Source of the DNA: a virus
Length of the DNA: 64,000 nt
Strand: one strand, 5' to 3'
Virus record (IMG/VR): IMGVR_UViG_2537562001_000004
Below the pieces are notes generated by a model. The model had not been told where the DNA came from. It did not search any database and saw nothing but the letters and a program-made list of their open reading frames with translations. The translations under genes and the position numbers were made by a program. Within the stretch, counting starts at the first letter, position 1. Each line of letters starts with the position of its first letter. This document shows, piece by piece, positions 2,140-56,950 of the stretch.

Positions 2140-2575
2140 GCAACATGTCTAGAGGTATTTAAAAATGAAGAGTTTGATTTTAGTAATTAGCTTGTTGTGA
2201 ATCAGAAAAAGACAATGGGGAAAGTATTAAAGGTTTTGGCTGAATATTGAAAATGTAAAAGAGAATTATCAGAATTAGATAAACGGCGTATTGAAAAAGC
2301 GATTCAAAATGATGTTTATGACGATTTAGTGGGAACGAAATTATATAAGCAATACAAAAAACATCTGTAAGTTAGAGTATGCATTAAAAAAAGCTTTGAA
2401 TGAGTTTGAAAGGGGATCATTGAAGAAGGCTATTTAACTAGAGAGAAGCACAACTGGGTACGGATGACAATGAAATTAAAAGTATCTAAAACAACGTACC
2501 ACAAAGGAAGGCGAGGAGCATTCAGTAGACTGGCTCATGCCCTGGAAATTGTGGTATATGATTGAGTTCGTGGGA
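2140..2575 (+). pseudogene. ArpU/RinA-like phage late transcriptional regulator, inactivated by at least three in-frame stops
   Basis: The translation MATCLEVFKNEEFDFSN*LVVNQKK..VLAEY*KCKREL...EEGYLTREKHNWVRMTMKL matches ORF 57248..57436 and the C-terminus of ORF 48232..48600. There is a TAG where a paralog has E and a TGA where a paralog has R. Confidence 0.6.
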
Positions 2576-2609: not shown

Positions 2610-3600
2610 CCAAGGAATTGGTTCTTATTTTAATTACTAAATATGCCTCGGGTGAAGCGATTAATTTGTAATAACTCACAATGATAATAAATTAGTTAAC
2701 AACTAACGAGGATGAGAGGGGTTTCCTCTCTTTAAGGGTAATAAGAAGAACGGTGGGCAACTCGAGTCCCCTTAGTAGGTTCCTGCCTTTAAAGATGGGA
2801 AAACATTGGAAATATCGTTCACCTAAGGAACGTACATATACAATTGAGATACGAAAGAGGAGGAAATGCACATTTCCGATCTCTTTGAGTCTACAAAGGT
2901 TCTAGTCACTCATTCAATCCCCCCTTTTTTTCTTTGCAGGCTGAAAAAGGTAAGTTTGTAGGGGATGAAAGTCTAAAATATATTTTAACTCGTCAGTAAT
3001 ACGTGAAATATCAGACCTCGAAATACTACTGTTAGTTGATCTGGAAGTTCTCCTTGCAGAGAGAAGCACGAATAAGCGTTATTTTTATCTGGTTAATAAT
3101 TATTCTTTGAAAAGAGAATACGTTTTATGGGAATTGGTGACAAATTCATCATAGCGTGCTCATTATAATAAACTTTACTCGGTGACGCGGAGGTTAGAGG
3201 GGATAGGAATTCCGCGAAAAGAAATGTGTTTTTTGTCAATAGATGAAAATTTAGAAGAGTTTTTAAAATAGATATAGGTGATTATACATCTTCATTATTC
3301 TAAAAAACAGATTTCGTTTCTTACAACGCTGCTGTACGTTGAAAGGTGTGGAAACACCAAATTCAAGTGAAGATTTATTTACCAACAATTTAATATTTTA
3401 TGCTGACTTGGAAGGAGTTTCCTTCCTTTGAGCGTATGGCAAGGTGATATTGAAAATCCTAATTCAAATTCATGTACCTATTCTTTTGCTGTACGTTGAA
3501 AGGGATGGAAAACACCCAATTTTCTTTTCCTGTTTATTTCTGAAAGACCTTATTTTGTTAATCAAGATAGGGTCTTTCCCCTGTTTTAAGAATAGTCATT
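2610..3600 (+). ncRNA. Copy A of a large modular structured non-coding element. Modules are M1 (about 2676-3090), M2 (about 3090-3300), a half M3 (3328-3359), a full M3 hairpin module (3410-3516) and a terminator-like hairpin (3548-3590).
   Basis: It is conserved with copies at 12792-14295, 19215-20340, 47222-48100 (-) and 56070-56950 (-). It contains many short perfect hairpins (ggaaatgcacatttcc; agtctacaaa paired with tttgtaggct; ggaaggagtttccttcc; ggtgtggaaacacc). There is no conserved ORF: a 31-aa ORF with a ribosome-binding site exists only in this copy. Confidence 0.6.
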
Positions 3601-7899: not shown

Positions 7900-8555
7900 G
7901 TTAAACCCCCAACTGGATTTAGTGATTAGTCGTGTACAATATGGTTCCAGATTAGTAGATCATCTATATACAAAATTAGAGCAATAAGGAATTCCTCATG
8001 CTGTATATGCCTATGAATGCTATGTATTTGTAGATGATGCGATTGTAGAAGCAAAAGACTTTTTAGAGAGAGTAAATCCAAATGCGAAGTTTCTTATTTT
8101 AGATGTGGAAGATGATACTTTGGATAAGAGTAAATTTGCAGAAGCATCACAAGCATTTATTGATACATGTCGTGCTTCAGGATGAAAAGTGGTTTATATA
8201 TATGTAGCACAACATATGTACGGTGATTATAAACTACAAAGTGTACAATCTGTACAAGCTGATTCATTTGGTTACCACGTTATGGGACAATCACAAATTA
8301 AGCCAGCGTATCCATGTGACATGTGGCAATATACAGATAATGGTTATATTGAAGGGGTTGGAAAAGTGAATATTAACTTACTACAAGGGGATAAAACATT
8401 AAGGTGGGATTTTGGAAAGTAGGCTAGTTTAATTACTCCAGAAGTAGGGAAACGGGTTGTTTCTAAGGTCGATCAATTACGATTCTATCCAAAACCTTCT
8501 TGGGTAAATGAAGATGATGCAGGTATTGTGACTAAAGGGTTAGGATTCACACCTA
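7900..8555 (+). pseudogene. GH25 muramidase plus SH3b endolysin, heavily decayed and truncated at its 3' end by an IS3-family insertion
   Basis: The translated fragments resemble the 32532..33258 endolysin (..DLWQYT../..[31 protein letters not shown]). ORF 8189..8422 is an internal piece. The reading frame runs straight into the IS copy at about 8556. Confidence 0.6.
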
Positions 8556-9711
8556 TGGAAAAAGTAGATGAGATGTACGAAGTTCACCACAATATAAAGT
8601 GGAAAGTGATTGAGATGAAAAAGGATGGTTATTCAAATCGTATCATTATGGAAACACTCGGAATTAAAAATGTTTCCCAAATTAAGACATGGATGAAATG
8701 GTATCGTACAGATCAAACATATCGTTTTCAACAACCTGTAGGAAAACAATATTCTTATGGAAAAGGGGCAAAAGAGTTAAGTGAATTGGAACAGCTACGA
8801 TTAGAAAATAAACATTTAAAAACAAAATTACTTGTATGGGGAAAGTATATGGAAATCGAAAGGAGCTGAAACCACATACCGTTATCACTCTATGGAATGA
8901 ATTAAAAACAAAAGTAACCGTACAAGAACTGTGTAACATATTAGAATTACCACGTTCCACATTTTATCGTTGGTTACAGACAACAGAACGCCCTAAAGAC
9001 GACATAGAAGAGAAAGTAAAGACGGTCTGTTTTAAGCATAAATTACGATATGGGTATCGAAGAGTGACCGCCACTCTTCAAAAAATGGGGCTATGTGTCA
9101 ATCATAAAAAAGTATTACGAATCATGAACAAATACCACATACTCTCGAAAGTACGTCGTAAGAAAAAGAAATATATCAATGGTGCAGAACCAGTTGTAGC
9201 TCCTCATCGATTAGAACGTCAATTTGAAGCGTCAGCCCCAAATGAAAAGTGGTTTACGGATGTAACGTATTTATTATTTGGAGAGCGTACTTTGTATTTA
9301 TCAACGATTATGGATGCCTTTAATCGCGAAATTATAAGTTATGTCGTCAGTGAATCACAAACGCTGGGATTAGCGATGAAGACGTTAAAACAAGCAATGA
9401 GAGGAAGAAAAATAAAAGATGTCCTCTTTCATTCAGATCAAGGAAGTACTTATACTGCGAAGGAATTTCAAGCGTATGCCAAAGAAAAAGGCATTATCAC
9501 CAGCATGCCCCGGAGAGGAAATTACCATGATAATGCCGTCATGGTAAGCTTCTTTTGTCATTTAAAAAGTGAAGCTTTCTATTCACAAAAGATAACAAAA
9601 GTATCCAACACAACTGTGCGAATTCAAGAAAAATTAAACCACCTATCCCCTAAAGAATTTAGGGAACAGATGGTTTAGGTGTTTTAATAGGTGTCCCTTT
9701 TTCAGGGTTCA
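8556..9711 (+). mobile_element. IS3-family insertion sequence, copy 1 (orfA about 8555-8869, orfB 8836..9678). OrfB carries an internal deletion relative to copy 2.
   Basis: OrfA is a helix-turn-helix protein (KWKVIEMKKDGYSNRIIMETLGIKNVSQIKTWMKWYR). OrfB is an rve-type DDE transposase (HSDQGSTYTAKEF..NYHDNAVMVSFF). The right end ..cagggttca matches copy 2 at 41401. About 12 codons (IVLEYIHYYNRV) present in copy 2 are missing here. Confidence 0.75.
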
Positions 9712-12791: not shown

Positions 12792-14295
12792 GGCTCTTTA
12801 ATTTTGTTTAAATGACTAAGAACAACTAATTTGTAACTACTCACGATAATTAATAATTTGTTAACAACTAACGAGGAGGAAATGACGGCGGGTGTCGCTT
12901 TAAAGGTTGTGTATAAATTCCCGGGCTTGTAGCGGGATCTCTACACATTTCCTATCTCTTTGAGTCTACAAAGGTTTCAATCTTCTTTTCCCTTGTAGGC
13001 TGAAAGGGGTGAAAGGTCAGTAGCGTGTGAAATTCTAAAATATAGTTAATTTGTTAATAATACGTGAAACCTGAAACCCAAAACTCAAAATTCCTACTGT
13101 TAATTGTTCGGGAGTTTCTCCTAGCAAAGAGTAACGCGGATAAGCGTTATTTATTGTCTCATTAATTAAACGATGGTCAATATAAGTTCTTTGAAAAGAA
13201 AATCTGGGGATAGCGTGCTCATTAAAACAACGTTACTCTGTGACGCGGAGGTTAGAGGGGATAAGAGTTTCCCGGAAAGAAAGTGTGTATTTTTCGGTGT
13301 TAAACGAAAAATTAGAAGTGTTTTCGAAATTGATGTATGTAAAAATATAGGGCTGGATAACAACTCCACAAGACATATTACTTATCGAACGATATCAGGG
13401 GAAGGGTTTCCCTTCCTTTGAGCGTACAGCAAAATGAAATAATACACGATGATTGAAGGCAACTTGCTGTGCGTTGAAAGGTGTGGAAACACCATCCCTT
13501 TTTTGCAAAACAAACTGTATTTATAATTACATTTTTCTGATAGAAAGCTTTGTTTCCCTAAGACAGAGGTTTTTATCATTTGAGAGTAACTAATTAGTTG
13601 CTCATTTTTTTATGTTTTTTTCATCAATAGATGAAGAAATAGCAGCGTTTTCCAGCTGGATATATGTGATTATATAAGCGTGAATAACAATCTATACATT
13701 CACTTTAAAATTCATGTTGTTGGGAGGGTTTTCCCTTCCTTTGAGCGTACAGAAAAGGTTAAGATTCTTATGTATCCGTCTATCAATCATCTTACCGTTC
13801 GTCCTGCTGTACGTTGAAAGGTGCGGAAAACACCATAAAGAAGGTTTGTTACATTGTACTCCTGATAAAGTTTATGCTTGATAAAAAGTCCTGTTTCTAG
13901 ATTGGAGAACAGGACTTTTTGTTTTATTACAATCCTTTATATAACAAGGTGTATAGTGAGTTCCTCTGATTGTTACAGTGGTTGGTACTAAGTAAGAGTG
14001 ATCAATTGGTTTCTACTTTTTCGTTAATAGATGAAAAAATAGAAACGTTTTCGAAATAGGCTTACGTAATAATATAGGTGTGGATGCGCTTCCACATTTT
14101 GTTTGAATCACATATTGTTGGGAAGGGTTTCCCTTCCTTTGAGCGTACAGCAAAATTAAACGGTTCCCTTCAGTTCCTTCACTGATTCTGCTGTACGTTG
14201 AAAGGTGTGGAAACACCATCCCTATTGTGCACATTGTAATATAATCTGATAGAAAGCTCTGTTTGTATAACAGGGCTTTCTATCGTTTAAGAGCA
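12792..14295 (+). ncRNA. Copy B of the large structured element. It has M1 (12792-13130), M2 (13130-13370) and three M3 hairpin modules (13398-13494, 13722-13836, 14120-14219). Each M3 is followed by a terminator-like hairpin (13538-13575, 13873-13915, 14252-14285). The third is also followed by a box motif at 13945-13990.
   Basis: Same module order and sequence as copy A. The M3 units repeat at about 330-400 bp spacing with partial M2-tail repeats (cgttaatagatgaaaaaatagaaacgttttcgaaa) between them. The loops differ between units. Confidence 0.6.
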
Positions 14296-14365
14296 ACTAA
14301 ATGGTTGTTCTTTTTGTTGGATAAAGCAGAAATTTAAAAGTTAAAAGATTATAAGGAGGAAAAAT

Positions 14366-16060
14366 GTGATTACTGAACTATATGTAAATGTTATTGATTT
14401 TGGTGCGAAAGGTGATGGAGTTACAGATGATACAGTAGCTATTCAAAAAGCCTTAGATAACGGTGGCGAGATATTTTTTCCTGCCGGAACATATGTAGTA
14501 AAAAATACGCTGAAATTGAAACAATCTAATACTAGATTATTTGGTGATAAAGGAAAAACAATATTAGATTGGTCTAAAGCATCTTCTGTTTTTAATACCA
14601 TCGGAGCGGAATTATTCCAAGTGTATGGAACTAAATCATCTGCTATTAAATTAACTACAGATGTATTAAAGGGAAAAGGACTGGGAAATGTTACAAACGA
14701 TTATCCAGGGCATCTTGTTGTTAAAAGGTTTGACTATGAAATCGAAGTAGCTTCTACAGAATCTGTTAATGACAATGATTTGATTTTAATTACCTCAGAT
14801 TTTATGTGGATAGATGATGCTGTTGAACATCAGCATGGTGAATTAGCTATTGTTTCAAATACTGTTGATTCTACAATATTGAGATTATCAAACCAATTAC
14901 ATGAAGATTATTTAACAACTAAAGCAGCGAGATACCATAAAATAACACCTATTGAAAATGTTGTAATAGAAGGATTAACATTTAGGGGGCATGATTACAA
15001 AGATAAAGTAAGGGGAGATTATGGCTTAATAGTTAAATATGGTCGAAATATTACTGTACGTGATTGTAGCTTTAAATCTGTCGACCAATGTTCTGTTGAT
15101 TTTATTAGTGTATATAATGGGTGTATTGAGAATTGTGATTTTTATCATATGTATACTAAGCCTAAATATTATATTCAATATGCATCTAAAGTTTCAAATG
15201 CATCTATGTTTATTAGAGTTTTAAATAATAACTATATAAATGGTAGACACGCTGTTGTAACTGGACATACATTGTATGAAGATTTGACGAAACCCGCAGA
15301 ATTAAGAGAACGTTGCCCAGGTATTCAGCGACATATTTTAGTTGAGGGTAATACAGCATCAGGATATTGGCACGCTGCATATAGTACACATAATTCCTCA
15401 GAATACGTTACATTTAAAGATAACTGCGCATTGCACTGTGATAAAGGATTTGAGTTGCGATGTAGATTAGTGGATGCTGTAGGGAACCATATACAGCATT
15501 GTCGAGTAGGATTCAATTTAACTGTACGTCCTGAGTATTTACAAATATCGAAGAATACACTTGTTGATACGGATTTATCTATTTATGCGAAAACATATAA
15601 AGAAGGATTCAATCCTAAATCTATTATGATTAGTGATAATTATCTTCTAAATACTACGGGAACAGGTATTGCTTTAAACTTTACTGATTGTCCTGGTATT
15701 GTAAAAGATATTGTAATTACACAGAATCGCATTGTAGATTGTGTAGCAAACACATATGCACTTCAGGTATCGGGAAAAGCTGAATGTGTAATTACAGGTA
15801 ATATAATTAGAAATATTTCGAATTTTGTTATTTCTCTAAGAGGTGTTATTAATAGCTGTGTTTCACAGAACATTGCTTATGATGCAGATACAAAGGGCAT
15901 GTTTTATTTAGTAAATGGTACCGCTTATGCTGCTGCGGGCAATGTTATCCGTGATAATTTTGCCTATAATTGTTACAAAGGTTTAATAGAAATGAATGCT
16001 TGGGGAGGTACAACAAACACAATTTCTCAGAACTACAATAATGGTGTGTTAGTTCCTTAA
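14366..16060 (+). CDS. Right-handed beta-helix (pectate-lyase fold) protein, likely a phage tailspike, depolymerase or pre-neck-appendage-like protein
   Basis: An intact 564-aa ORF. The N-terminus (VIDFGAKGDGVTDDTVAIQKALDNGGEIFFPAGTYVV) is typical of pectate_lyase_3 and tailspike beta-helix proteins. There is a ribosome-binding site (aggagg) upstream. Confidence 0.6.
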   Translation: MITELYVNVIDFGAKGDGVTDDTVAIQKALDNGGEIFFPAGTYVVKNTLKLKQSNTRLFGDKGKTILDWSKASSVFNTIGAELFQVYGTKSSAIKLTTDVLKGKGLGNVTNDYPGHLVVKRFDYEIEVASTESVNDNDLILITSDFMWIDDAVEHQHGELAIVSNTVDSTILRLSNQLHEDYLTTKAARYHKITPIENVVIEGLTFRGHDYKDKVRGDYGLIVKYGRNITVRDCSFKSVDQCSVDFISVYNGCIENCDFYHMYTKPKYYIQYASKVSNASMFIRVLNNNYINGRHAVVTGHTLYEDLTKPAELRERCPGIQRHILVEGNTASGYWHAAYSTHNSSEYVTFKDNCALHCDKGFELRCRLVDAVGNHIQHCRVGFNLTVRPEYLQISKNTLVDTDLSIYAKTYKEGFNPKSIMISDNYLLNTTGTGIALNFTDCPGIVKDIVITQNRIVDCVANTYALQVSGKAECVITGNIIRNISNFVISLRGVINSCVSQNIAYDADTKGMFYLVNGTAYAAAGNVIRDNFAYNCYKGLIEMNAWGGTTNTISQNYNNGVLVP

Positions 16061-18723: not shown

Positions 18724-18797
18724 TGGACCTTGTAGGACTCGAACCTACGGCCGAACGGTTATGAGCCGTTTGCTCTAACCAGCTGAGCTAAAGGTCC
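18724..18797 (-). tRNA. tRNA with anticodon CAT (Met or lysidine-Ile2 type)
   Basis: The reverse complement ggacctttagctcagctggttagagcaaacggctcataaccgttcggccgtaggttcgagtcctacaaggtcca folds as a cloverleaf with a 7-bp acceptor stem and a CTCATAA anticodon loop. A terminator hairpin lies downstream and a conserved R4 promoter-like region lies upstream at 18798-18990. Confidence 0.85.
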
Positions 18798-19214: not shown

Positions 19215-20340
19215 TATAACGTAAGCTACAGGAACTTACATATACAATCGAGACACAAACAAGAAAGGGATAGGAAATATACATTTCCTATCCCTTTGAG
19301 TCTACAAAGGTTTCACTCATTCAATCACTCCTATTATCTTTTTGTAGGTTGAAAAAGATAATAGGTCAGTGGCGTATGAAAGTCTAATAAAAATATCAAA
19401 CCGTCAATAATACGTGAAATATCAGACCTCGAAATACCACTGTTAATTGATTTGGGAGTTCTATTTGCAAAAAAATAGCGTAAATAGGCATTATTTTTTG
19501 TTGAATTAATTAGTCGACAGTCAATTAGTGTTCATTGAAAAGAAAATATGTTTCATGAGATATTGTGTTCATTATAATAACGTTGCTAGGTGATTCGGAG
19601 GCCAGATGGCATAAGAGTTTCTCGAAAAGAAGATGTGTTTTTTCGTCAATAGATGAAAATTAGAAATATTTTCGAAAGGTGTATTTGTGTTATGTTTTAG
19701 GTGAGAATAGTCATGTGAAAGATGTCTATTCTAATTCAAGAATGTTTAAGGGCCACACAGAGGTTATCTTAAGTGTTTTTGACGACAATTTAATATTTAT
19801 GCTGACTTGGAAGGGTTTTCTCTTCCTTTGAGTGCACAGCAAAACGAATGTATCCGTTTTGCTGTGCGTTGAAAGGTGCGGAAACAACATAAACATTATT
19901 CACTACATTATGGTTTCTGATTTGATAAGAAGTCCTATTTTCTAAATTGGAGAGCGGGGCTTTTTATCGTGTATACAATATCTCATATACAGAGGCGAAT
20001 AGTGAGTTTCTTGAACAAAAAAACGCTTCTATTTTTTCGTTAATAAACGAAAAAATAGAAGCGTTTTCGAAAAACATTTCTGTAATAATATAGATGTAGA
20101 AGAAAAATTTACAATAACATCCTAAATTTCTTTGTTTTCGTAGGGAAGGTTTTCCTTCCTTTGAGCGTACAAAAAGCCAAGGAAAAAAGGCGATTTTGCT
20201 TTGCTGTACGTTGAAAGGTGCGGAAAACACCAAACTAGGGCAGCTTACTGTTTATGATACTTTATCAATGTAATAAATTTATTAAAAAGCCCTATCATTC
20301 ATAAAGATTAGAATGATAGGGCTTTTGGTCACTTAAGAGT
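19215..20340 (+). ncRNA. Copy C of the large structured element. M1 is truncated at its 5' end. There are two M3 modules (19809-19888 and 20143-20231) and terminator-like hairpins (19920-19965, 20285-20328).
   Basis: Same module order. The first M3 has a short loop of about 20 nt. A box motif is present at 19975-20010. Confidence 0.55.
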
Positions 20341-20377
20341 AGCTGAAAGGTTGCTCTATTTTTATGAGAAAAGGAGA

Positions 20378-34090: not shown

Positions 34091-34728
34091 CCATCACTCT
34101 CCTTTTCACAAAAAATAGAGAAATCATTTGATAACTCTTACTTAGCGCCAGCCACCGTAACGATTAGAGGCACTCACTATACGTCTTGGTATATGAGATA
34201 TTACATAAAATAAAAAGCCCTGTTCTTCAATTAAAAAAACATGGCTTCTTATCGGAATTGCTTATATTATTTTATGGTGTTTCCACACCTTTCAACGTAC
34301 AGCAGATTGTGAGTCAATTCCAAATAGTGAGCGCCGGTTTTTTGATACTATCTCGCTATACGCTCAAAGGAAGAGAAATCCTTCCCCGTATATGAAGTTG
34401 CTAGTGAAGGCGCAAATTCATTTCCAACACTTGCATTATCACATAAAGCTATTCCCAAAAATGTTTCTATTTTTTATTTATTGGCGAAAAAACAGGTCTT
34501 CTTCCAGACCCCTTAATCATCTGATTACTTTTGATATAGAAAAACCCCCAATCATTTTGAGTCTTTAGAATGATTGGGGGGGTGAAAAAAACAGAGAGTT
34601 TATATAAAATGGGAACGTTATGAATGTTATATCCACTTATTCACTCTCAAACTTCTTCCAATCGCTAAATACCATATATTTAAACATTAGTAATTAATCG
34701 GAAGAATACTCGGGTAACTGTGAACCCG

Positions 34729-34833
34729 TGGTGTTTTCCGCACCTTTCAACGTACAGCACGAGAGAGGAAAATATTTCTTGAAAGGTGCATCTATTAACC
34801 TTGCTGTACGCTCAAAGGAAGGGAAAGCCTTCC
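34729..34833 (-). ncRNA. Isolated M3 hairpin module, reverse orientation. A partial M2 lies at 34900-35040.
   Basis: ggtgttttccgcacctttcaacgtacagca-[loop]-tgctgtacgctcaaaggaagggaaagccttcc. Confidence 0.5.
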
Positions 34834-34958
34834 TATTCAGCGTAAAATATTAAATTTTCAACAAGAATACTTAAAATAACCTCCGTGTCATCCTCAATTA
34901 TTCTCACTTAAAAAATATCACAAACACAGCTTTAAAAATACTTCTGTTTTTTCGTATA

Positions 34959-35832
34959 TCAGAGAAAAAATACACCTTCTCCTCGAGGGACTTTTATCCC
35001 CTCTAGCCTCCGCGCCACTGTGTAAGTAGATTGAGTGTGTTGTCTTTTGATCTCTTTTTGAGTTGGTTCTGTATCTTCATGTAACCAATCAGGGACAATT
35101 TCTATTCGTTTTCCATTGTTTCCCCTCGAGTATTCTTTTCTTTGTTTTTCCCTTTGGAATCGGGCATCTATTGCTGCAACATCATCTAGCATTTTTACTG
35201 TCTCTCTTTCCCAATTTTTCAAAATAACATGTACGTATCCCCATTTCAGCGCATTTTCATCCACCGCTTTATTAACTGCATGCTCAATTAACTGACTGCC
35301 AAACAGCATACAAAATCTTTGTAACTTTTCTTCAGCCTTTTTACTTAGAGCGATTTTTTCCCTTTAAAATAGTCACGGGCTATTTTATATTCTTGTTCAA
35401 TTGATTTTTGAGATAATGGATTATCGTCATCATGATAATGATTAGTATTTAGTAGTATGGGACTTTCCTGTCACTAGATTTTCCACTGGTGGAGAATGCA
35501 CCCAGTGGCTCCACTTGCGGAACTTCATGAATTACTGTTTCCCCACTAATAATTTTGTTGTTATCATTTCTGATTGGAATGCGTCGTAAATATCTATATT
35601 CTTTTAACTCCTTCATGCCACTTCTCAAACTATCAACACCATCTTTCGCATGGGTAGCTAGCTCATCTCGATAAAACATCCAATCATCTGGAGGAGTAAG
35701 GATATATGCTAAAATCCCTTTTGCCTTCCATGAAAGTCTTTCATCTCTTAAACCGGTATTATTTACGACAGAATAATTTTTGTTCTTTTCCACTCTTACA
35801 ATTCCCATATTCCCTACCTCTCCTGTTTGCAC
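34959..35832 (-). pseudogene. Phage replication initiator (winged-helix N-terminus plus DnaD-like C-terminus), frameshifted. The palindrome gaacccgctgcagcgggttc lies upstream at 35877-35896.
   Basis: ORF 35449..35832 (LSWKAKGILAYILTPPDDW) and ORF 34959..35309 (NALKWGYVHVILKNWERE) are in different frames and are separated by about 140 bp. Confidence 0.55.
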
Positions 35833-43831: not shown

Positions 43832-44140
43832 TCAAATCGAAGTATCTCTCGATAAAATCCAAAATAAAAAGACTTCTTCTTTAGAAACCTTTAGTAGATT
43901 GATTGTATAATTCAATTCATTTTCATCTTGTAACTTTTCTTTCACTTTATCTAATGACATCCTCTTACACTTCCTAGTGTTCACGCAGTTCCTAACTTGG
44001 CAGTAACGCCAATAAGAATACTTTCTAAACTGATTCAACATATCTCTTTCATAAGAAGTTCGTTCTTTCTTCTCAGCATATTGAATCATTAAGTCCGTAT
44101 CGAATGTCCAACTACTATCAGTAATAATCATATCTACCAC
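43832..44140 (-). CDS. Hypothetical phage protein downstream of HNH, possibly the 5' part of a packaging gene cut off by the IS at 43796
   Basis: A 102-aa ORF that ends about 35 bp before the IS boundary. Confidence 0.3.
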   Translation of the reverse strand: MVDMIITDSSWTFDTDLMIQYAEKKERTSYERDMLNQFRKYSYWRYCQVRNCVNTRKCKRMSLDKVKEKLQDENELNYTINLLKVSKEEVFLFWILSRDTSI

Positions 44141-44448
44141 CGCTCTTCATTCATGAACTTAGGTTTCTTCTTCTCAACCTTATCTAACCGATCATGCACT
44201 TCGTTATGACAACGGATGCACAGACATTGTAAGTTATCCAAGTCTAATACTAACTCTGGATGTGTCTTCACTTCCTTCATATGATGCACATTCTCAACAG
44301 GTCTGTACTTTCCTTTTGACTTACACATCTGACATTCATAGTTGTCACGCTTCATTGCTTCTTGTCTTAGTGCTTTCCATTCTTTTGATTTATAAAACTT
44401 CTGGAGTTTGTTCTCTTTAATGAGTTGAATCAGTTCATGGATTTCCAT
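44134..44448 (-). CDS. HNH endonuclease, phage packaging-associated
   Basis: CQMCKSKGKY..VHHMKEV...NLQCLCIRCHNEVH, the zinc-finger HNH motif. It sits in the usual position before terminase genes. Confidence 0.75.
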   Translation of the reverse strand: MEIHELIQLIKENKLQKFYKSKEWKALRQEAMKRDNYECQMCKSKGKYRPVENVHHMKEVKTHPELVLDLDNLQCLCIRCHNEVHDRLDKVEKKKPKFMNEERW

Positions 44449-44459
44449 ATTTCAAATAC

Positions 44460-45017
44460 CTATTTGTATAACCTATAAACAAAACAATCTACAAAAGCAC
44501 CTTTGCACTTTGGGCAAATCTTCCCATCGAAATGTTCGTCTTTCATTACTTCTACTTTATCTGCATATCCACAGCATCCACACTTATAACGTGCATTGCC
44601 GCTCTTTAATGAACCCTGTTGAATTGCATCTGCTGTTAGATATTCCTTCGTAACATAGCGTTTATTTGCCCGTTCTTCATTAACAAACCCTTGCCCAATA
44701 ACCTCCAAGATACCATTAAATGCTTTATTCAATTCTGTAGCTATGGTTCGCAAAACTTTAATTGCTTTTTTGATATCTTCTTTCTTTTCTTCTTGTTCAG
44801 GTGTCATATCTAAAATATGACCATATTCCTTTTTCAATTCTTCAAATTCTTTCTTTGATTGATTCGATCTTTCGTTTAACAATTGCAATTGTATCCCGTT
44901 TTGTCTTGCAATTTCAGAACTTGTTTCAATATTCATTCGAATCTGTTTCCTCAAAACTTCTTGCTCTTTAATCCAAGCGTTCATTTGACGTACATATATT
45001 TCATGTTTATTCATCAT
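44460..45017 (-). CDS. Phage protein with an N-terminal coiled coil and a C-terminal C4 zinc ribbon (hypothetical)
   Basis: A 185-aa ORF with YKCGCCGY...CPKCKG. Pseudogene copies exist at 4070-4650 and 20870-21060. Confidence 0.5.
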   Translation of the reverse strand: MMNKHEIYVRQMNAWIKEQEVLRKQIRMNIETSSEIARQNGIQLQLLNERSNQSKKEFEELKKEYGHILDMTPEQEEKKEDIKKAIKVLRTIATELNKAFNGILEVIGQGFVNEERANKRYVTKEYLTADAIQQGSLKSGNARYKCGCCGYADKVEVMKDEHFDGKICPKCKGAFVDCFVYRLYK

Positions 45018-45238
45018 TTATCGCTCCTTTGTTTTATAGCCTTCAATTGCTCCATTTCCTTCTCGACCATCCTTTTAACATCACGTTTTTCACGAATCAC
45101 TTTGATAATGTCAACCATCCAATTTGTACAACTTGATACCAGAATGACAAGGAATATAATGGACAATATTTCTCCCATCCCACCACTCTCCTTTTCACAC
45201 AAAAATAGAGCAACCAAACGGTTACTCTTGTATAGCAA
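45014..45238 (-). CDS. Small single-transmembrane protein, probably 54 aa starting at the ATG near 45178. Resembles a type I toxin or holin.
   Basis: The ribosome-binding site aaaggag lies 8 nt before ATG GGA GAA ATA. MGEILSIIFLVILVSSCTNWMVDIIKVIREKRDVKRMVEKEMEQLKAIK. Paralogs lie at 45981..46202 and 47001..47198. Confidence 0.55.
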   Translation of the reverse strand: MLYKSNRLVALFLCEKESGGMGEILSIIFLVILVSSCTNWMVDIIKVIREKRDVKRMVEKEMEQLKAIKQRSDK

Positions 45239-45299
45239 AAAGCGTGATTTATTCTGATCCTTGAGAATAAATCATGCTTTAAGAAAAACATATATTCAA

Positions 45300-45610
45300 T
45301 AGATGTTTGCGCCCTAGTCTGGTGTTTTCCACACCTTTCAACGTACAGCAGAATCAGTGCAGGAACTGAAGGGAACCGGTTAATTCCGCTGTACGCTCAA
45401 AGGAAGGGAAACCCTTCCCATGTCTTGGGTAAATTAATTTTGTGAAGTTGCGATCCACACCTATATTATTCCATAATCACCTTTTTGAAAACGCTTTTAT
45501 TTTTCATCTATTAACGAAAAAACACGTTTTCTTTTCAAAGAACTCTTATCCCCTCTAGCCTCCGCTTCACCGAGTAACGTTTATTATAATGGGCACGCTA
45601 TGTTCCTTCT
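45300..45610 (-). ncRNA. M2 partial (45480-45600), M3 hairpin module (45321-45419) and a terminator (45239-45285) leading the small transmembrane-protein gene at 45178
   Basis: ggtgttttccacacctttcaacgtacagcag-[loop]-gctgtacgctcaaaggaagggaaacccttcc. Confidence 0.55.
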
Positions 45611-45719
45611 CCAATAAGGATGTTTATAGAATTTAATAATATTATCTTGTTCATATAGTTTTATGATTTCTTGTATTGTTAGAGGTTGCATGAACTATCT
45701 TCACCCCTTTTTAACAACG

Positions 45720-45854
45720 CTTTGATTCATCATTGATCCATTGCATTTAGGACAGTTCCACCCATCACGTATCTTATGAGAAGTCTCTTCAAATCCACAA
45801 TTTTTATTTAGACACCAATGTTTTGTTAATGGCATTTTCAAAGTTCTTCCTCCT
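45720..45854 (-). CDS. Small zinc-ribbon protein (about 44 aa), related to the N-terminus of 55446..55748
   Basis: MPLTKHWCLNKNCGFEETSHKIRDGWNCPKCNGSMMNQ compared with THYCLNKECEWTETSHKMCDGMKCPKCKGHFMS. Not in the ORF track because it is under 60 aa. Confidence 0.45.
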
Positions 45855-45980
45855 CCAAAATAAAAAGAGCAGCAAAAAAGCTACTCGTTTTCAACTGGTT
45901 TTAATTTAAGTGCATTATCATTAATATCTTCTACAATACGCTCAACATCTACATCAAACATTTCATCCTCAACTCTAATC

Positions 45981-46202
45981 TTATCGCCTTTTCGAATGTT
46001 CGATAAAGTATCCTTCACCCTTTATCGCTTTCAATTGTTCCATTTCCTTCTCGACCATCCTGCTAACAGCACGCTTTTCACGAATCACCTTGATTACATC
46101 AATAATCCAACTTGTACAACTTGATGCCAAAATACTAACGGATATAATAGACAGTATTTCTCCCATCCCACCACGCTCCTTTTCGCATAAAAAATAGAGC
46201 AA
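45981..46202 (-). CDS. Small single-transmembrane protein paralog (true start probably near 46166)
   Basis: MGEILSIISVSILASSCTSWIIDVIKVIREKRAVSRMVEKEMEQLKAIK. A box motif lies at 46212-46290 and a terminator at 46291-46337 upstream. Confidence 0.55.
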   Translation of the reverse strand: MLYFLCEKERGGMGEILSIISVSILASSCTSWIIDVIKVIREKRAVSRMVEKEMEQLKAIKGEGYFIEHSKRR

Positions 46203-46377
46203 CCCAATAGTTGCTCTTAATTAACACCAACCGCCGTAACGATTAGAGGAACTTACTATACGTCTCGGTATATGAGATAGTTCGTATACAAAAAAGCTCT
46301 ATTGTTCTGACCCTTAAGAACAAACAGAGCTTTTTTGCAATTGTGCAATATATAAGAAATGACACCGATATTTCCCT

Positions 46378-46905
46378 GGTGTTTCCGCACCTTTCAACGT
46401 ACAGTAAAGTATGGGAGAAGGCATGTTAGGATACCTTTTAACTTTACTGTACGCTCAAAGGAAGGGAAACCCTCCCAAATCAGCATATGACATATTTAGT
46501 TGTTATTAAGAACATTTAAATCAGCTTGCACCATCAATAAATGCTCTTACTCCAAGGTCGATGTGGTAAATCGACTATCTACCTCCCTATAATCACATAT
46601 ATTCACTTTGAAAACACATCTGTTTTTTCATCTATTAACGAAAAAACAAACTTTCCTTTCAAGGGAACTCTCTATACGTCTTGGCATGTGAGCGCGACAA
46701 AAAGTCCTGTTCCCTAATCCAGAAACAGAACTCCCTATCAAATTAAGAATAGATGACAGCAATATGCGTTCGAAAACCCAATAAGCCTTTGGTGTTTTCC
46801 ACACCTTTCAACGTACAGCAGATTAAGTGAGGGAACGGATTTAGGGTACCTGTTAATTCTGCTGTACGCTCAAAGGAAGGGAAACCCTTCCCCGTATATG
46901 AAGTT
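46378..46905 (-). ncRNA. Two M3 hairpin modules (46378-46475, 46791-46890) with an M2-tail and box (46580-46700) between them
   Basis: Module 46378-46475 carries the compensatory pair caacgtacagTAaagt paired with actttActgtacg, where other copies have cagCag paired with ctGctg. Confidence 0.55.
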
Positions 46906-47000: not shown

Positions 47001-47198
47001 TTAAAAGAGCAACCATGCATCAGTTGCCCTTTCGTCGATTTCCTTCTTCAACGACTTATTCATATCACGTTTTTCACGGATCACTTTGATTATGTCAATA
47101 ATCCAACTTGTACAACTTGATACCAGAACGACAAGAAATATAACAGACAGTATTTCCCCCATCCCATCACACTCCTTTTCGCATAAAAAATAGAGCAA
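47001..47198 (-). CDS. Small single-transmembrane protein paralog (true start probably near 47162)
   Basis: MGEILSVIFLVVLVSSCTSWIIDIIKVIREKRDMNKSLKKEIDE. An M3 module (47294-47408) and terminator (47222-47256) lie upstream. Confidence 0.5.
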   Translation of the reverse strand: MLYFLCEKECDGMGEILSVIFLVVLVSSCTSWIIDIIKVIREKRDMNKSLKKEIDERATDAWLLF

Positions 47199-47221
47199 CC
47201 AAATGGTTACTCTTCAACGAC

Positions 47222-48100
47222 AAAAAGCCCTGTCTTGGGTAAACAGAGCTTTCTATCAGAAAAAAGTTATTACATATACTACACAATAGGGACGGTGTTT
47301 TTCTACACCTTTCAACGTACAGCAATTTTTTTAATGTGAGCACTACGATTGATTTTTCAATGTCAGTTTTGTTTTGCTGTACGCTCAAAGGAAGGGAAAA
47401 CCCTTCCCCATAATATGATTTTAAAGGTAAGAACAACACGTAAGTTGGCTACTTACACTTATATTTTTACACATATTCATTTCAAAAACGCTTCTGATTT
47501 TTCATCTATTAACGAAAAAACACGTTTTCTTTTTGAGGAACTCTTATCCCCTCTAGCCTCCGCGTCACCGAGTAACGTTATTATAATGAGCACGCTATCC
47601 CACGAAACGTATTCTCTTTTCAAAGAACACACTTATTGAACACTGGTTAATACGTACTAACAAAAAACAACGTAACAAAACGTTGCCTCTTGCATAGATA
47701 ACACCCGATCAATTAACAGTAGTAATTGAGGTTTCAGCTTTCGCGCATTACTGACGAGTTAAAATGTTTTAGACTTTCATACGCTACTCACCTATTACCT
47801 CTTTCAGCCTACAAATGGAATGGATAACGATTGAATGAGTGATTGGAACCTTTGTAGACTCAAAGAGATAGGAAATGTGTATTTCCCACTCTTTCGTGTT
47901 CAGTCCAGTATATGGATGGTTTCCCATCTTTAAAGGTATTCACCTTAAGTTGCAGTGCGAAATTCCAACTTAAAACAATCCCCTTAAAGAGAGGAAATCC
48001 TCTCCTCCTCGTTGGTCGATAACTAATTTGTTATCATTGTGAGTAATTACAAATTAACTGCTCGGCTTGAGATGTTTAAACAAAATAAAAGAGCCAACAG
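47222..48100 (-). ncRNA. Copy E of the large structured element, reverse orientation. M1 is at 47690-48100, M2 at 47450-47640 and M3 at 47294-47408. It lies directly downstream of the intact ArpU gene.
   Basis: The reverse complement aligns along its full length with copies A and B. Confidence 0.6.
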
Positions 48101-48231
48101 ATACCAGCAGGTTTGCTAGGATGCCTTATCGACTCTTTAATCATAAAATACTTATTATCAGTGTGATTCCTTTGTTTTTCCCTTCTTTTTTCGCATTTTT
48201 TCCGTCATTTCGCTCTTTTCCACCTCTATTC

Positions 48232-48600
48232 CTAGTGCATATGCCAATCTTCTAAACGCTCTAGCTCGTTTGTTATAGTATGGTGTTTTTCCAGCCCTAA
48301 CTTTTGGGACATCACAATCCAGTTATGCTCTTTTGATTCCACATAACCTTCACGTATAATTCTTTGCTCTTGTACGTTCAATGCATTCTCTATCGCATCT
48401 TCAAAATCTTTGATGTATTCGTATCGTTTTCTCTTTTTTTCTGATACCTCAAGACCATTTTGGATATCTTCCCGATCTCCCTTTGTAACGCTTAGCAAAT
48501 ACAGCCGATACTTTTCTAATGCTTGATGTACATTAGCCTTTGTAGCTTCCATATCTAACTCAGGAATTTTAATATCAAGCATTTCAATCCACTCCTGCAT
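48232..48600 (-). CDS. ArpU/RinA-like phage late transcriptional regulator, intact
   Basis: A 122-aa ORF whose C-terminus (QRIIREGYVESKEHNWIVMSQKLGL) resembles a sigma-70 region-4-like helix-turn-helix. Pseudogene paralogs lie at 2140-2575 and 56990-57436, each followed by the large element. Confidence 0.5.
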   Translation of the reverse strand: MQEWIEMLDIKIPELDMEATKANVHQALEKYRLYLLSVTKGDREDIQNGLEVSEKKRKRYEYIKDFEDAIENALNVQEQRIIREGYVESKEHNWIVMSQKLGLEKHHTITNELERLEDWHMH

Positions 48601-56069: not shown

Positions 56070-56950
56070 GCCCTATTCTTCAATTAAGAAAACAGGGCTT
56101 TTCGCCGGTTTAAGAGAATGTGTTCTACAAAAAAGTTAGCACATTTTCTCGTCTGGTGCTTTCACACCTTTTAAATATTAAATTGTTATAGTGCGAAATT
56201 ATTTTCCGCACCTTTCAACGTACAGCAGATTATAGATGTGAGTGCAAATAATGGTTTTTGATGTCATGTTTATTCCGCTGTACGCTCAAAGGAAGGGAAA
56301 TCCTTCCCTAGAAAAATAAAAAAATCAAGAATATAGGTGCGAAGTTGTCATCCACACCTATATAATCACACATATTCATTTCGAAAGCACTTCTAGTTTT
56401 TCATCTATTAACGAAAAAACACGTATTCTTATCGAGGAACTCTTATCCCCTCTAGCCTCCGCACCACCGAGTAACGTTTTTTAATGAGCACGCTATCCCA
56501 TAAAACGTATTATCTTCTCTAAGAACATTTATTGACCGTTGGTTAATTAATCGAACAAAAAATAACGCTTATTTACGTTACTCTTTGAAAGGAAAAATCT
56601 AAATCAATTTAAATCAATCAAAAACAATTATTAAGGCTTCGGCCTTCACGTATTACTGACGGTATAAAATTTGTTGTAGACTTTCATACACTACTAACCT
56701 ATTACCTTTGTAGGCTGAAAGAGATAGGAAATGTGTATTTCCCCCTCTTGTGTATCGGCACTTCAGTATATGGATAGTTTCTCATTTTTAAAGGTACTCA
56801 CCTTAAGCCATAGTACGAAATTCCAACTTAAAACAATACCCTTATCTTCTTCCTCGTTGGTCGGACCCTTGCTTACGTTTATTCGTGAGTAAACTATAAT
56901 TAATTGCCCTTGCCGAGTGTTTAAATAGAATTGAAAAAAGACATCAATTT
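56070..56950 (-). ncRNA. Copy F of the large structured element, reverse orientation, with an M3 at 56190-56308 and an extra half-unit at 56153-56180. The central M1 stem-loop is collapsed by an internal deletion at about 56700-56730.
   Basis: The reverse complement aligns with the other copies. Where they have ctctttgagtctacaaaggtt[35 nt]tttgtaggctgaaagaggtaat, this copy has only ctctttcagcctacaaaggtaat. Confidence 0.55.

What the first reader, a model, noticed from the sequence alone, without database searches (positions are those of the whole stretch)
2610..3600. Conserved 0.8-0.9 kb hairpin-rich non-coding element, repeatedly placed between ArpU-like late regulators and phage packaging genes
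Five copies share the same module order M1-M2-M3 over nearly 1 kb: 2610-3600, 12792-14295 and 19215-20340 on the + strand; 47222-48100 and 56070-56950 on the - strand. None has a conserved ORF. Each contains many short perfect hairpins and a 10-bp stem (agtctacaaa paired with tttgtaggct) closing a loop of about 35 nt. Three copies (A, E, F) start about 60-160 bp after the stop of an ArpU-family gene, and two of them (E, F) are followed by HNH and terminase genes. This is where a late promoter and a cos/pac site are expected. A conserved, highly structured untranslated region of almost 1 kb is unusual there. It could be a large structured late-operon leader RNA, a large prophage-associated ncRNA, or a packaging-site region with arrayed protein-binding hairpins. 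I do not recognise it as any named family.
Basis: seen in the sequence. Interest (0 to 1): 0.85.

Follow-up and report, generated by a model that had tools for sequence, protein, structure and literature searches.

The report
Structured non-coding RNA before phage late genes
Between the late-gene regulator (arpU) and the packaging genes of Bacillus cereus-group prophages lies a roughly 1-kb stretch that codes for no protein, appears to fold as a modular RNA on one strand only and ends in strong terminators; no RNA database describes it and its role in late gene control is untested.

Summary
The window is Bacillus cereus BAG6X1-2 DNA, ORF-poor and full of decayed prophage junctions. It holds the five copies listed, plus a partial copy at 35032-34110(-) and extra cassettes at 46898-45201(-).

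The element is non-coding. It is predicted to fold far better on the phage-sense strand (-267.7 kcal/mol, z -7.2) than on the antisense strand (-196.8, z -2.4). It is modular:
- a 5' domain;
- a ~100-nt M2b hairpin domain;
- one to three ~110-nt three-helix units (H1-P2-H3; 13 in the window);
- intrinsic terminators ending about 22 nt before the first late start codon.

Nearly all of the 44 ArpU loci fetched from IMG/VR have a 0.8-1.1 kb ORF-free gap at this position. So do cultured phages such as IEBH, 250 and phi4B1.

A covariance model built only from those unrelated-looking relatives has strong covariation (11 compensated pairs, 0/500 shuffles). It finds the window's units as its top hits. 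No Rfam family matches.

Function is not established. I favour a terminated structured ncRNA or 3' UTR that also insulates the late promoter (0.42). The main rival is a late-operon leader with attenuation or antitermination (0.30). A cos/pac site and a decayed gene are unlikely.

The parts
2197..2556 (+). Decayed arpU (late regulator) pseudogene upstream of copy A
   Evidence: tblastn with the phi4B1 and P0003 ArpU proteins; in-frame stops visible in the sequence
2610..3600 (+). Copy A of the element. 5' block about 2661-2680; M1 three-helix module about 2862-2949, with one A.C mismatch in P2; M2b about 3103-3215; orphan 3' arm plus H3 at 3329-3363; unit at 3403-3525; long-stem terminator at 3542-3578
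   Evidence: fold z = -3.2
12792..14315 (+). Copy B. M1 at 12827-13340, with module P2 at 12959-13005; units at 13393-13503, 13716-13843 and 14114-14227; T2-type terminators at 13582-13611 and 14289-14315
19215..20363 (+). Copy C. M1-M2 at 19230-19665, with module P2 at 19295-19354; units at 19803-19898 and 20136-20240; T2 terminator at 20335-20363, followed by a decayed small TM ORF at 20425-20520
34110..35032 (-). M2 tail at 35025-34931; units at 34840-34721 and 34392-34266; T2 at 34139-34110
47185..48085 (-). Copy E, the best preserved. 5' block with a -10-like TGTAAT; M1-M2 at 48057-47473, with module P2 at 47864-47802 and M2b at 47628-47531; unit at 47413-47286; long-stem terminator T1 at 47257-47219; terminator T2 at 47214-47185
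45201..46898 (-). Extra cassettes that extend copy E. Units at 46898-46782, 46483-46368 and 45425-45312; T2 terminators at 46218-46189 and 45229-45201. Each T2 is followed by a copy of the small TM ORF (47162-47031, 46166-46020, 45178-45017)
   Evidence: (family D1)
48079..48600 (-). arpU of copy E. The ORF is 48600-48232; similarity to the 168-aa ArpU P0003 continues to 48079
56170..56950 (-). Copy F. M1-M2 at 56935-56361, with the loop and 3' arm of the M1 module deleted; unit at 56314-56189. An arpU remnant at 57373-57029 lies upstream. An HNH remnant (55983-55768), terS (55352-54921) and terL fragments lie downstream
44134..45017 (-). First late genes after copy E: a 185-aa zinc-ribbon protein (45017-44460) and an HNH endonuclease (44448-44134)

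Best explanation
The element is the template for a long, modular, strongly folded non-coding RNA region, read in the same direction as the phage genes. It lies at the boundary between the early/regulatory operon, which ends with the late activator gene arpU, and the late packaging-morphogenesis operon.

It is built from repeated RNA domains:
- a 5' domain;
- an M2b hairpin domain of about 100 nt;
- one to three copies of a three-helix module. This is hairpin H1, then a long stem P2 with a conserved base (UUUGAG paired with YUSAAA) and a freely variable tip, then hairpin H3.

It ends at one or two strong intrinsic terminators, T1 and T2.

My preferred mechanism is as follows. Transcription coming from the arpU side, or from a promoter at the element's 5' edge, produces a stable structured RNA that stops at T1/T2. 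The terminators insulate the late genes. Late genes then depend on an activator-dependent promoter that starts about 20 nt before the first late gene, as mapped for Staphylococcus phages phi11 and 80alpha. The folded RNA itself would be a phage regulatory RNA or a precursor of several. In the sister family it ends in a RoxS/RsaE-like C-rich sRNA module.

Shown here: non-coding status, strand-specific folding, covariation of the three-helix module, terminator placement, and spread among B. cereus-group phages.

Inferred only: that the element is transcribed at all, where the promoters are, that the terminated RNA is the functional product, and any trans-acting role.
For: Non-coding.

Strand-specific RNA-type conservation:
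- The unit stem has 30 G.U against 2 A.C in its 16 core pairs over 22 distinct copies.
- Sense copy E folds at -267.7 kcal/mol (z -7.2); antisense at -196.8 (z -2.4).
- Model R1 scores 100-146 bits on the sense strand and 17-31 on the antisense strand.

Covariation of H1-P2-H3 in 21 relatives: 97.9% of cells paired, 11 pairs and 42 cells with compensatory change, 0/500 shuffles, and slid controls at 31-52% paired.

The model built from those relatives alone retrieves the window's units as its best hits, E from 1e-7 to 1e-2.

Compensated helices between copy E and phage phi4B1: GGGAAAT/ATTTCC becomes GGGTAAC/GTTACC, and TCTACAAA/TTTGTAGG becomes CCGAGGAAC/GTTCCTCGG.

Terminators:
- 11 on the element strand against 1.9 expected.
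- The conserved T2 (AAGAGTAAC..GGTTGCTCT plus a T run) occurs 8 times in the window, and also in L001, L057 and, in diverged form, phi4B1. Its T run ends about 22 nt before the ATG.
- T1 has a 16-17-bp stem flanked by A and U tracts.

Precedent from phi11 and 80alpha (PMC3152322): a terminator lies between rinA and terS, and the RinA-dependent start site is 23 bp before the terS ATG. This geometry matches the one seen here.

Relatives end in an sRNA-like module. UCUCCCAUCCCCUU plus a terminator is present in 35 of the 60 loci fetched, all of them L008-type. RsaE scores are 38-44 bits, with both C-rich regions aligned.

Generality: nearly all of 44 IMG/VR ArpU loci have a 0.8-1.1 kb ORF-free gap. 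Cultured phages IEBH, 250, PfNC7401 and 0105phi7-2 carry it with no annotation.
Against: - No transcript data were available. No sigma-A-like promoter was found either at the 5' edge or after T2.
- In the window's type, T2 ends only about 8-10 nt before the Shine-Dalgarno sequence. A promoter would have to overlap the terminator, with only a weak -10 (TATTTT) and no -35. That geometry equally fits read-through control.
- The RoxS/RsaE-like module is absent from the window's own copies. It is below Rfam's threshold even in the relatives.
- Within the window's units alone, covariation is weak: 3 compensated pairs, and shuffles give 96.1% paired against 96.6% observed. The structural support rests largely on the relatives.
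- Unit loops are only mildly C-enriched. They show no significant complementarity to the downstream start region.
Confidence: 0.42

Rival explanations
1. Late-operon leader with regulated termination. The ArpU-dependent late promoter sits at the 5' edge of the element and the whole ~1 kb is the 5' leader of the late mRNA. T1/T2 stop transcription unless an antitermination or attenuation mechanism operates. Candidates are the three-helix modules acting like HK022 put, EAR or conAn2 RNAs, a zipper-type switch, or ArpU acting like lambda Q at PR'-tR'.
For: - T2 ends about 22 nt before the ATG and about 8-10 nt before the SD, with no recognisable sigma-A promoter in between.
- At the element's 5' edge there is a conserved block containing a -10-like hexamer (TATAGT or TGTAAT) just before the conserved TTACTCAC.
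- The layout (regulator gene, then a terminated leader, then late genes) mirrors lambda Q-PR'-tR' (established knowledge).
- Each unit can adopt either three hairpins or one zipped long hairpin; the zipped form is the MFE in 12 of 22 units. This resembles the pLS20 zipper-type attenuator (PMC13401043).
- RinA needs sequences more than 155 bp upstream of the start site, which its authors call hard to explain by simple activation.
Against: - The only mapped start sites in Ltr-type phages are 23 bp before terS, and they are primary ends.
- H3 of the units has no U tract, so a unit is not itself an attenuator.
- T1 has a very long stem, a feature reported to resist processive antitermination (abstract of PMC10325885).
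- Relatives end in an sRNA-like module with its own terminator, which suggests that the terminated RNA is a product.
Confidence: 0.3
2. Interspersed B. cereus-group repeats (bcr- or MITE-like modules) have piled up in a dispensable spacer. The hairpins then reflect the repeats' own biology, not a phage function.
For: - Units and modules occur in variable copy number, and also in plasmid regions with no ArpU gene nearby (L057, L058).
- The 98-nt M2b module is 93-95% identical on many B. mycoides plasmids.
- Eighteen repeat families are known in this group, some with predicted RNA structure and some transcribed within UTRs (PMC3446304).
Against: - In 42 of 42 L008-type loci the module sits at one fixed position and on one strand, about 500 nt after arpU.
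- No target-site duplications or terminal inverted repeats were noted, though I did not look for them systematically.
- The plasmid copy I read through (L057) carries the same T1/T2 terminators and looks like a prophage remnant.
- The whole region, not only the repeats, is conserved in cultured phages.
Confidence: 0.12
3. A DNA-level site: a cos/pac packaging region, or an array of binding sites for terminase or the late activator. The inverted repeats would then be protein-binding palindromes.
For: - The position is just upstream of HNH/terS, where cos or pac sites are often found.
- T2 is a conserved dyad (AAGAGTAAC..GGTTGCTCT) lying where the -35 region of a promoter placed as in phi11 would be.
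- Ltr proteins bind repeats distal to their own gene (PMC3753634).
Against: - Pairing is kept through G.U, which becomes a C.A mismatch on the other strand: 30 G.U against 2 A.C.
- There is a 71 kcal/mol fold asymmetry between strands.
- Stems covary while their sequences change completely between families. That is expected for RNA helices, not for sequence-specific DNA sites.
- The length (0.8-1.5 kb) and the variable number of modules are atypical for cos or pac.
Confidence: 0.08
4. A decayed protein-coding gene, frameshifted in all copies.
For: The window is full of pseudogenes. Only 40 ORFs of 100 aa or more occur in 64 kb, and arpU of copy A carries in-frame stops.
Against: - There is no codon periodicity in substitutions, and 81% of indels are not multiples of 3.
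- There are no Pfam or PHROG hits.
- No gene is annotated or called in intact phages and prophages: phi4B1, IEBH and L055.
Confidence: 0.02

Closest known systems
rinA/ltr-terS intergenic region of Staphylococcus phages phi11 and 80alpha, and the Ltr superfamily including ArpU (PMC3152322, PMC3753634)
   Same: The genomic slot is the same: a late-regulator gene, then a non-coding region containing an intrinsic terminator, then the first late gene. The distance from terminator end to ATG here (about 22 nt) matches the mapped start site 23 bp before terS.
   Different: The element here spans 0.8-1.5 kb, and most of it is covarying RNA structure and repeated modules. The papers read describe binding repeats, a terminator and a promoter in the staphylococcal spacer but no RNA structure. 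Promoter and binding sites are unmapped in the Bacillus phages.
pLS20 conjugation-operon leader with the zipper-type attenuator cATT (PMC13401043)
   Same: It is a long non-coding region (456 nt) before a very long operon of a Bacillus mobile element. It has a weak hairpin, a long imperfect hairpin and a third hairpin. The flanking hairpins are complementary to each other, so the long stem can zip further. A terminator lies just before the first gene's SD.
   Different: Here the third hairpin (H3) has no U tract, so it is not the terminator. H1 is GC-rich rather than weak. The modules are repeated. The context is a phage late operon without conAn1/conAn2. No sequence similarity was noted by eye, and I ran no direct comparison.
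Lambda Q / PR'-tR' (6S leader) and HK022 put RNAs (established knowledge)
   Same: The order is late-regulator gene, then a terminated non-coding transcript, then late genes. The put RNAs are stem-loop RNAs that act in cis on RNA polymerase.
   Different: The lambda leader is 194 nt and put is about 70 nt. There is no homology. ArpU is reported as a DNA-binding activator, not an antiterminator. No antitermination has been shown in this system.
GOLLD and ROOL large prophage-associated ncRNAs (PMC5737381, PMC12286853)
   Same: They are large (about 0.6-0.8 kb) structured RNAs of unknown function, found in Firmicutes prophages and often near tRNA genes. A tRNA-Met lies about 0.4 kb upstream of copy C and also upstream of arpU in L053.
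   Different: There is no match to their Rfam models. The element here is a variable array of repeated modules rather than one compact fold with conserved multistem junctions and pseudoknots.
RsaE/RoxS sRNA (Rfam RF01820)
   Same: In the sister (L008-type) elements, the last ~100 nt carry both C-rich regions (AUUCCCCUUU and UUUCUCCCAUCCCCUUU) followed by a terminator. They align end to end with the RsaE model.
   Different: Scores are 38-44 bits against a threshold of 79, and the first hairpin is truncated. The module is absent from the window's copies.

Membership tests
Any Rfam 15 family (including GOLLD, ROOL, HEARO, group I/II introns, T-box, pRNA, Y RNA-like) | Covariance-model score at or above the family's gathering threshold | tested here: not met
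   Only three tRNAs in the whole window reach threshold. E-value scans of copies A and E and of phi4B1 give only chance-level miRNA-type hits. The best non-trivial hit is T-box at 26.7 bits against 93, in L055.
GOLLD/ROOL-type large prophage ncRNA | A single compact fold with conserved multistem junctions and pseudoknots | tested here: not met
   The element is a mosaic. Unit number varies from 1 to 3, cassettes are duplicated, and the M2b module is shared independently of the rest. RNAalifold on 8 copies gives mostly local hairpins plus one short long-range stem.
GOLLD/ROOL-type large prophage ncRNA | Prophage context, often beside tRNA genes | tested here: inconclusive
   The prophage context is met. 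A tRNA-Met lies about 0.4 kb upstream of copy C only, on the opposite strand, and upstream of arpU in L053.
Zipper-type transcription attenuator (cATT of pLS20) | A long imperfect stem-loop flanked by two hairpins whose sequences can pair to extend it | tested here: met
   H1 (GGGTTTCC) and H3 (GGAAAC-A-CC) can pair. The zipped form is the MFE in 12 of 22 units. In the M1 and L008-type modules, the 3' strand of H1 pairs with the 5' strand of H3 (read from the sequences). This is predicted by energy only; these positions hardly vary, so covariation cannot test it.
Zipper-type transcription attenuator (cATT of pLS20) | The downstream hairpin is an intrinsic terminator (a U tract follows) just before the first gene | tested here: not met
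   H3 is followed by ATCCCT, AGACTA, ATAAAG and similar sequences, with no U tract in 21 of 22 units. The real terminators T1/T2 lie 30-100 nt further downstream.
Processive antitermination RNA (put, EAR, conAn2) | Acts in cis on RNA polymerase so that it reads through downstream terminators | not testable with these tools
   This needs reporter or in vitro transcription assays. Only the prerequisites are seen: the same strand as the late genes, and terminators downstream.
RsaE/RoxS sRNA | Two or three C-rich regions plus a terminator, with a model score of at least 79 bits | tested here: not met
   The window has no match even with 3 mismatches to the signature. Relatives score 38-44 bits with both C-rich regions aligned, so they resemble the family but do not reach its threshold.
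cos/pac packaging site | DNA-level recognition, so conservation should not depend on strand | tested here: not met
   30 G.U against 2 A.C in the unit stem. Sense fold -267.7 against antisense -196.8 kcal/mol. Model R1 favours the sense strand by about 100 bits.
cos/pac packaging site | Virion DNA ends or the terminase cut site map inside the region | not testable with these tools
   The phi4B1 record is linearised at the terS start, which says nothing about the ends.
B. cereus-group interspersed repeats bcr1-bcr18 | Sequence match to a bcr consensus | not testable with these tools
   The consensus sequences (Kristoffersen et al. 2011) are not held. They are not in the supplement searched. Full-text search for four element motifs found no paper.
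Protein-coding gene or pseudogene | Codon periodicity, a conserved reading frame, or homology to a protein family | tested here: not met

The most novel reading that the evidence does not exclude
Most temperate phages of the Bacillus cereus group would carry a previously undescribed class of large modular RNA at the junction between regulator and late operon. Its covarying three-helix modules (H1-P2-H3) have an invariant G.G/G.U patch at the base of P2 in the window's units. They would be functional RNA devices of one of two kinds. Either they are cis-acting elements that reprogram RNA polymerase or switch termination to time late gene expression. Or they are scaffolds that release or present regulatory RNAs, RoxS/RsaE mimics in the sister family, that retune host metabolism during the lytic cycle. 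The good preservation of unit stems in prophage remnants whose protein genes are dead would then hint at use by the host as well.
Probability: 0.3. Interest if true: 0.8.

Novelty: new variant of a known kind. Interest (0 to 1): 0.66.

Why it matters
Late gene control in ArpU/RinA-type phages of Gram-positive bacteria is only partly understood. The RinA authors themselves noted that the activator needs sequences far from the start site.

About a kilobase of covarying RNA structure, bounded by strong terminators, sits exactly at this control point. It is present in cultured, tractable phages (IEBH, 250, phi4B1, PfNC7401), so the question can be tested directly with RNA-seq, Term-seq and deletions.

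If the modules act on transcription, this would be a new RNA-based layer of phage late regulation. If they are trans-acting, and especially if the RoxS/RsaE-like ends of the sister family are functional, it would be a case of phages copying a host metabolic sRNA.

It also supplies a covariance model, and candidate modules, that are missing from Rfam.

Tried and rejected
Database and collection searches that found little:
- Rfam at gathering and E-value thresholds on the window, copies A and E, phi4B1 and 16 further related loci gave no family.
- Both scans of the species-representative genome collection found nothing useful, although the organism is a B. cereus-group strain. One hit was a chance match in a Caldilineaceae MAG. 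I cannot explain this, and it cost the chance of a genome-wide census.
- blastn of copy A against 50,697 phage records found nothing. Copy E matched only phi4B1, over 106 nt.
- Viral-contig pattern scans for M1 motifs gave 0 and 1 loci. The search for related loci with copy E's ArpU gave none.

Ideas tested and dropped:
- Protein-coding.
- tRNA or tRNA-like identity for the 92-nt insertion with a T-arm in the P2 loop of L050. ARAGORN and the Rfam tRNA model both say no.
- Unit loops as antisense to the start region of the downstream small TM gene. One loop is 9-nt complementary (UUCUCCCAU to AUGGGAGAA). RNAduplex against shuffles gave nothing significant for it.
- Resemblance to group II intron domain V (GAGCGUAC...GUACGUUGA). 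I noted it from memory and dropped it because no Rfam intron model hits.
- Integron attC-like sites. I considered them because of the imperfect inverted repeats around variable centres. I dropped them because of the strand-specific G.U pattern and the conserved flanking hairpins.

Inconclusive or not completed:
- The sigma-A promoter scan was not informative: counts equal the shuffled expectation.
- The literature held here does not mention the region.
- My two-state energy calculation for the units is rough, and I do not lean on it.
- One count of structure pairs for the zipped form failed on a length error. I did not repeat it because those positions are nearly invariant.
Full report
**What the window is.** An ArpU-like protein encoded at 48600-48232(-) is 100% identical to a protein of Bacillus cereus BAG6X1-2. 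All blastn hits in the plasmid collection are Bacillus. The window is strikingly ORF-poor, with 40 ORFs of 100 aa or more in 64 kb. It is full of diverged direct and inverted repeats. It reads as a set of decayed prophage junctions. Genes run on the + strand on the left and on the - strand on the right, matching a GC-skew switch near 22-30 kb.

**Checking the observation.**
It also finds further pieces at 34275-35025, 45320-45602 and 46377-46891.
- The five-way alignment shows the shared order of modules.
- A 16-nt arm motif occurs 24 times against 0.24 expected.
- The quoted 10-bp stem is real in copies B, C and E. It has one mismatch in A and is deleted in F.
- ArpU remnants precede A, E and F only.
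- HNH follows E. A weak HNH remnant, terS and fragments of terL follow F. After E, the terminase position is taken by IS3-family transposases.

The corrections are that there are more copies and that the element is a mosaic.

**It is not protein-coding.**
- In the aligned M1-M2 region the longest stop-free stretches are at most 70 aa in all six frames of eight copies.
- Substitutions fall 36/33/32% over the three phase positions.
- Only 19% of indels are multiples of three.
- Stop-free translations hit nothing in Pfam or PHROGs.
- No gene is annotated or called there in phage phi4B1, phage IEBH or an intact Logan prophage contig.

**Anatomy.** Each copy runs as follows:
- A 5' block with a conserved -10-like hexamer (TATAGT or TGTAAT) just before TTACTCAC.
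- M1, a hairpin-rich domain that contains one three-helix module.
- M2, which includes a ~100-nt M2b domain (GTTCTTTGAAAAGAGAAT...GGAGGCTAGAGGGGATAAGAGTTCC).
- One to three 'units' of about 110 nt.
- Terminators.

A unit consists of hairpin H1 (GGGAAGGGTTTCCCTTCC), then a 17-bp stem P2 (CCTTTGAGCGTACAGCA paired with TGCTGTACGTTGAAAGG) closing a variable 18-50-nt loop, then hairpin H3 (GGTGYGGAAACACC). There are 13 units in the window and 22 distinct ones once related loci are included.

The element ends with T1 and T2. T1 is a long-stem terminator flanked by A and U tracts. T2 is conserved (AAGAGTAAC..GGTTGCTCT followed by a T run). The T run of T2 ends about 22 nt before the ATG of a small transmembrane ORF. 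Behind copy E, a cassette of unit(s), terminator(s) and the small ORF occurs three times.

**RNA rather than DNA.**
- In the 16 core pairs of P2 over 22 units there are 30 G.U pairs and only 2 A.C. G.U becomes a mismatch on the other strand.
- Copy E folds at -267.7 kcal/mol (z -7.2) on the phage-sense strand. The antisense strand gives -196.8 (z -2.4).
- Unit-plus-terminator segments have z about -6.7.
- All 11 terminator-like sites between 44900 and 48700 are on the element strand, against 1.9 expected.

**Beyond this strain.**
- The window's sequence type ('W-type') recurs at 74-77% identity after arpU in B. cereus Schrouff and in two Logan assemblies.
- Its 5' domain recurs in phage phi4B1, between arpU plus one ORF and terS. 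Several helices there are fully compensated: GGGAAAT/ATTTCC becomes GGGTAAC/GTTACC, and TCTACAAA/TTTGTAGG becomes CCGAGGAAC/GTTCCTCGG.
- I fetched 44 IMG/VR loci by a different B. cereus-group ArpU. Nearly all have 0.8-1.1 kb with no sense ORF of 70 aa or more after arpU. My cruder ORF call gives a median gap of about 960 nt.
- The downstream regions of the 43 of these loci that are long enough to compare, together with plasmid locus L008, form one sequence family, 'L008-type'. It is not BLAST-similar to W-type apart from the M2b module.
- The L008-type region is present and unannotated in cultured phages IEBH, 250, PfNC7401, PfIS075, 0105phi7-2 and LY4. It is partly present in BMBtp3, BceA1, phi4J1, Waukesha92 and TP21T.
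- In L001 a unit with T1 and T2 precedes the late genes. The regulator there is a Sigma70_r4/DUF1492-type protein, not ArpU. The element therefore goes with the start of the late operon.

**One RNA module family.** The pattern hairpin, (C)TTTGAG, covarying stem, variable tip, YTSAAAG, hairpin recurs with entirely different stem sequences. It appears in the units, in M1, in phi4B1 and in every L008-type locus. The tip ranges from a 4-nt loop to a 92-nt insertion.

On 21 L008-type sequences, the three helices are paired in 97.9% of cells. Eleven pairs and 42 cells show compensatory change. None of 500 shuffles reaches this, and slid controls give only 31-52% paired.

A covariance model built from those sequences only (R1) returns the window's units as its best hits (E from 1e-7 to 1e-2) and M1 of copy C at E 0.12. 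It finds one copy at a fixed position, about 500 nt after arpU, in all 42 L008-type loci searched. Sense-strand scores there are about 100 bits above antisense.

On the window's units alone, covariation is weak because they are nearly identical to each other. For the eight W-type M1-M2 sequences, RNAalifold finds 99 pairs, only 8 of them with compensatory change. The structural case therefore rests mainly on the comparison across families.

**Comparison with known families.** No Rfam family matches.

The closest architectural relative I found in the literature is the pLS20 zipper-type attenuator. It has a weak hairpin, a long hairpin and a terminator, and its flanks can zip the long stem further (PMC13401043). 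The units share the zipping potential. Their H3 has no U tract, however, so they fail that defining feature.

The sister family ends in a module that aligns end to end with RsaE/RoxS. Both C-rich regions are conserved and a terminator follows. Scores are only 38-44 bits against a threshold of 79. The window lacks this module.

Whether any module equals one of the catalogued bcr repeats could not be tested.

**Mechanism.** Two RNA-level models fit.

*Model 1: a terminated ncRNA or 3' UTR that also acts as an insulator.*
- In phi11 and 80alpha, a terminator lies between rinA and terS. The RinA-dependent primary 5' end is 23 bp before terS. That matches the spacing between T2 and the ATG here.
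- T1 has the very long stem that has been reported to resist antitermination (abstract of PMC10325885).
- The sister family ends like an sRNA gene.

*Model 2: a late-operon leader whose terminators must be read through.*
- In W-type, T2 ends about 8-10 nt from the SD, with no recognisable promoter after it.
- The element's 5' edge has a conserved -10-like hexamer.
- The layout mirrors lambda Q-PR'-tR'.

I give 0.42 to the first and 0.30 to the second. The remainder is 0.12 for repeat accumulation, 0.08 for a DNA-level site and 0.02 for a decayed gene. Transcript end mapping in any of the cultured phages would decide between the two RNA models.

**Verdict.** This is a real, widespread, undescribed structured non-coding region at a key phage control point. 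It has one module family well supported by covariation. Its function is open. Interest 0.66; it is a new variant of a known kind (structured regulatory or non-coding RNA at an operon boundary).

Noticed in passing
L050:3800-3903; L019:2076-2183; L009:3580-3681; also L059 (phage IEBH) about 3291 and L060 (phage 250) about 3365: The last ~100 nt of the L008-type non-coding regions align end to end with the RsaE/RoxS sRNA model. Both C-rich regions are present (AUUCCCCUUU and UUUCUCCCAUCCCCUUU) and a terminator follows. Scores are 38-44 bits against a threshold of 79. The signature, allowing up to 2 mismatches, is in 35 of the 60 loci fetched. This may be a phage copy of a host metabolic sRNA.
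   Followed up: partly
L050:3386-3477: In one metagenomic relative, the tip of P2 is replaced by a 92-nt insertion with a perfect tRNA-like T-arm (GTAGGTTCGATTCCTAC), closed by a 7-bp stem. ARAGORN and the Rfam tRNA model do not call it a tRNA. It shows that the tip of P2 tolerates large insertions.
   Followed up: partly
window 1-64000: The window is very ORF-poor, with 40 ORFs of 100 aa or more. It holds at least seven decayed copies of the same prophage junction. They are on the + strand on the left and on the - strand on the right of a GC-skew switch near 22-30 kb. Protein genes next to the elements carry stops, while unit stems remain almost fully paired. I did not examine whether this reflects selection or gene conversion.
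   Followed up: no
window 3428-3430/3498-3500 and the same position in all 22 distinct units (13 of them in the window): The base of P2 has an invariant G.G mismatch at pair 6, next to a G.U at pair 8 that is nearly invariant (18 of 22 units; 5'-UGAG/5'-UUGA). In the L008-type and phi4B1 modules the G.G is a G-C pair. It could be a recognition patch.
   Followed up: partly
window 47628-47531; L008:3001-3097: The ~98-nt M2b module is 93-95% identical on many B. mycoides plasmids. On pBWB401 it lies about 75 nt after an intact arpU. It is much more conserved than its surroundings.
   Followed up: partly
window 47162-47031, 46166-46020, 45178-45017 (decayed copies at 20425-20520 and 34021-33953): A small transmembrane ORF (MGEILSIIFLV...) is triplicated. 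Each copy sits directly behind a T2 terminator. It has weak PHROG hits only (phrog_21871; a membrane protein family).
   Followed up: partly
window 18724-18797(-), 31732-31804(+), 39681-39754(+): There are two nearly identical tRNA-Met(CAT) genes on opposite strands, 99% complementary. A related gene is called tRNA-Val(CAC) and is 84% identical to the Met gene including its flank. A tRNA-Met also lies upstream of arpU in L053.
   Followed up: no
window 8528-9678(+) and 41590-43710(-): IS3-family transposase pairs form 88-95% inverted repeats across the window. The right-hand ones sit where the terminase of copy E should be.
   Followed up: no
window 14366-16060(+): Copy B is followed not by packaging genes but by a 564-aa right-handed beta-helix (pectate-lyase-like) protein. 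It is 23-24% identical to pre-neck appendage or tail-spike proteins of phi29-like Bacillus phages.
   Followed up: partly
Genome-contig collection: Exact-pattern scans of the species-representative genome collection found none of the unit motifs. Yet the motifs are present in several B. cereus-group genomes, plasmids and IMG/VR prophages. I could not explain this.
   Followed up: no
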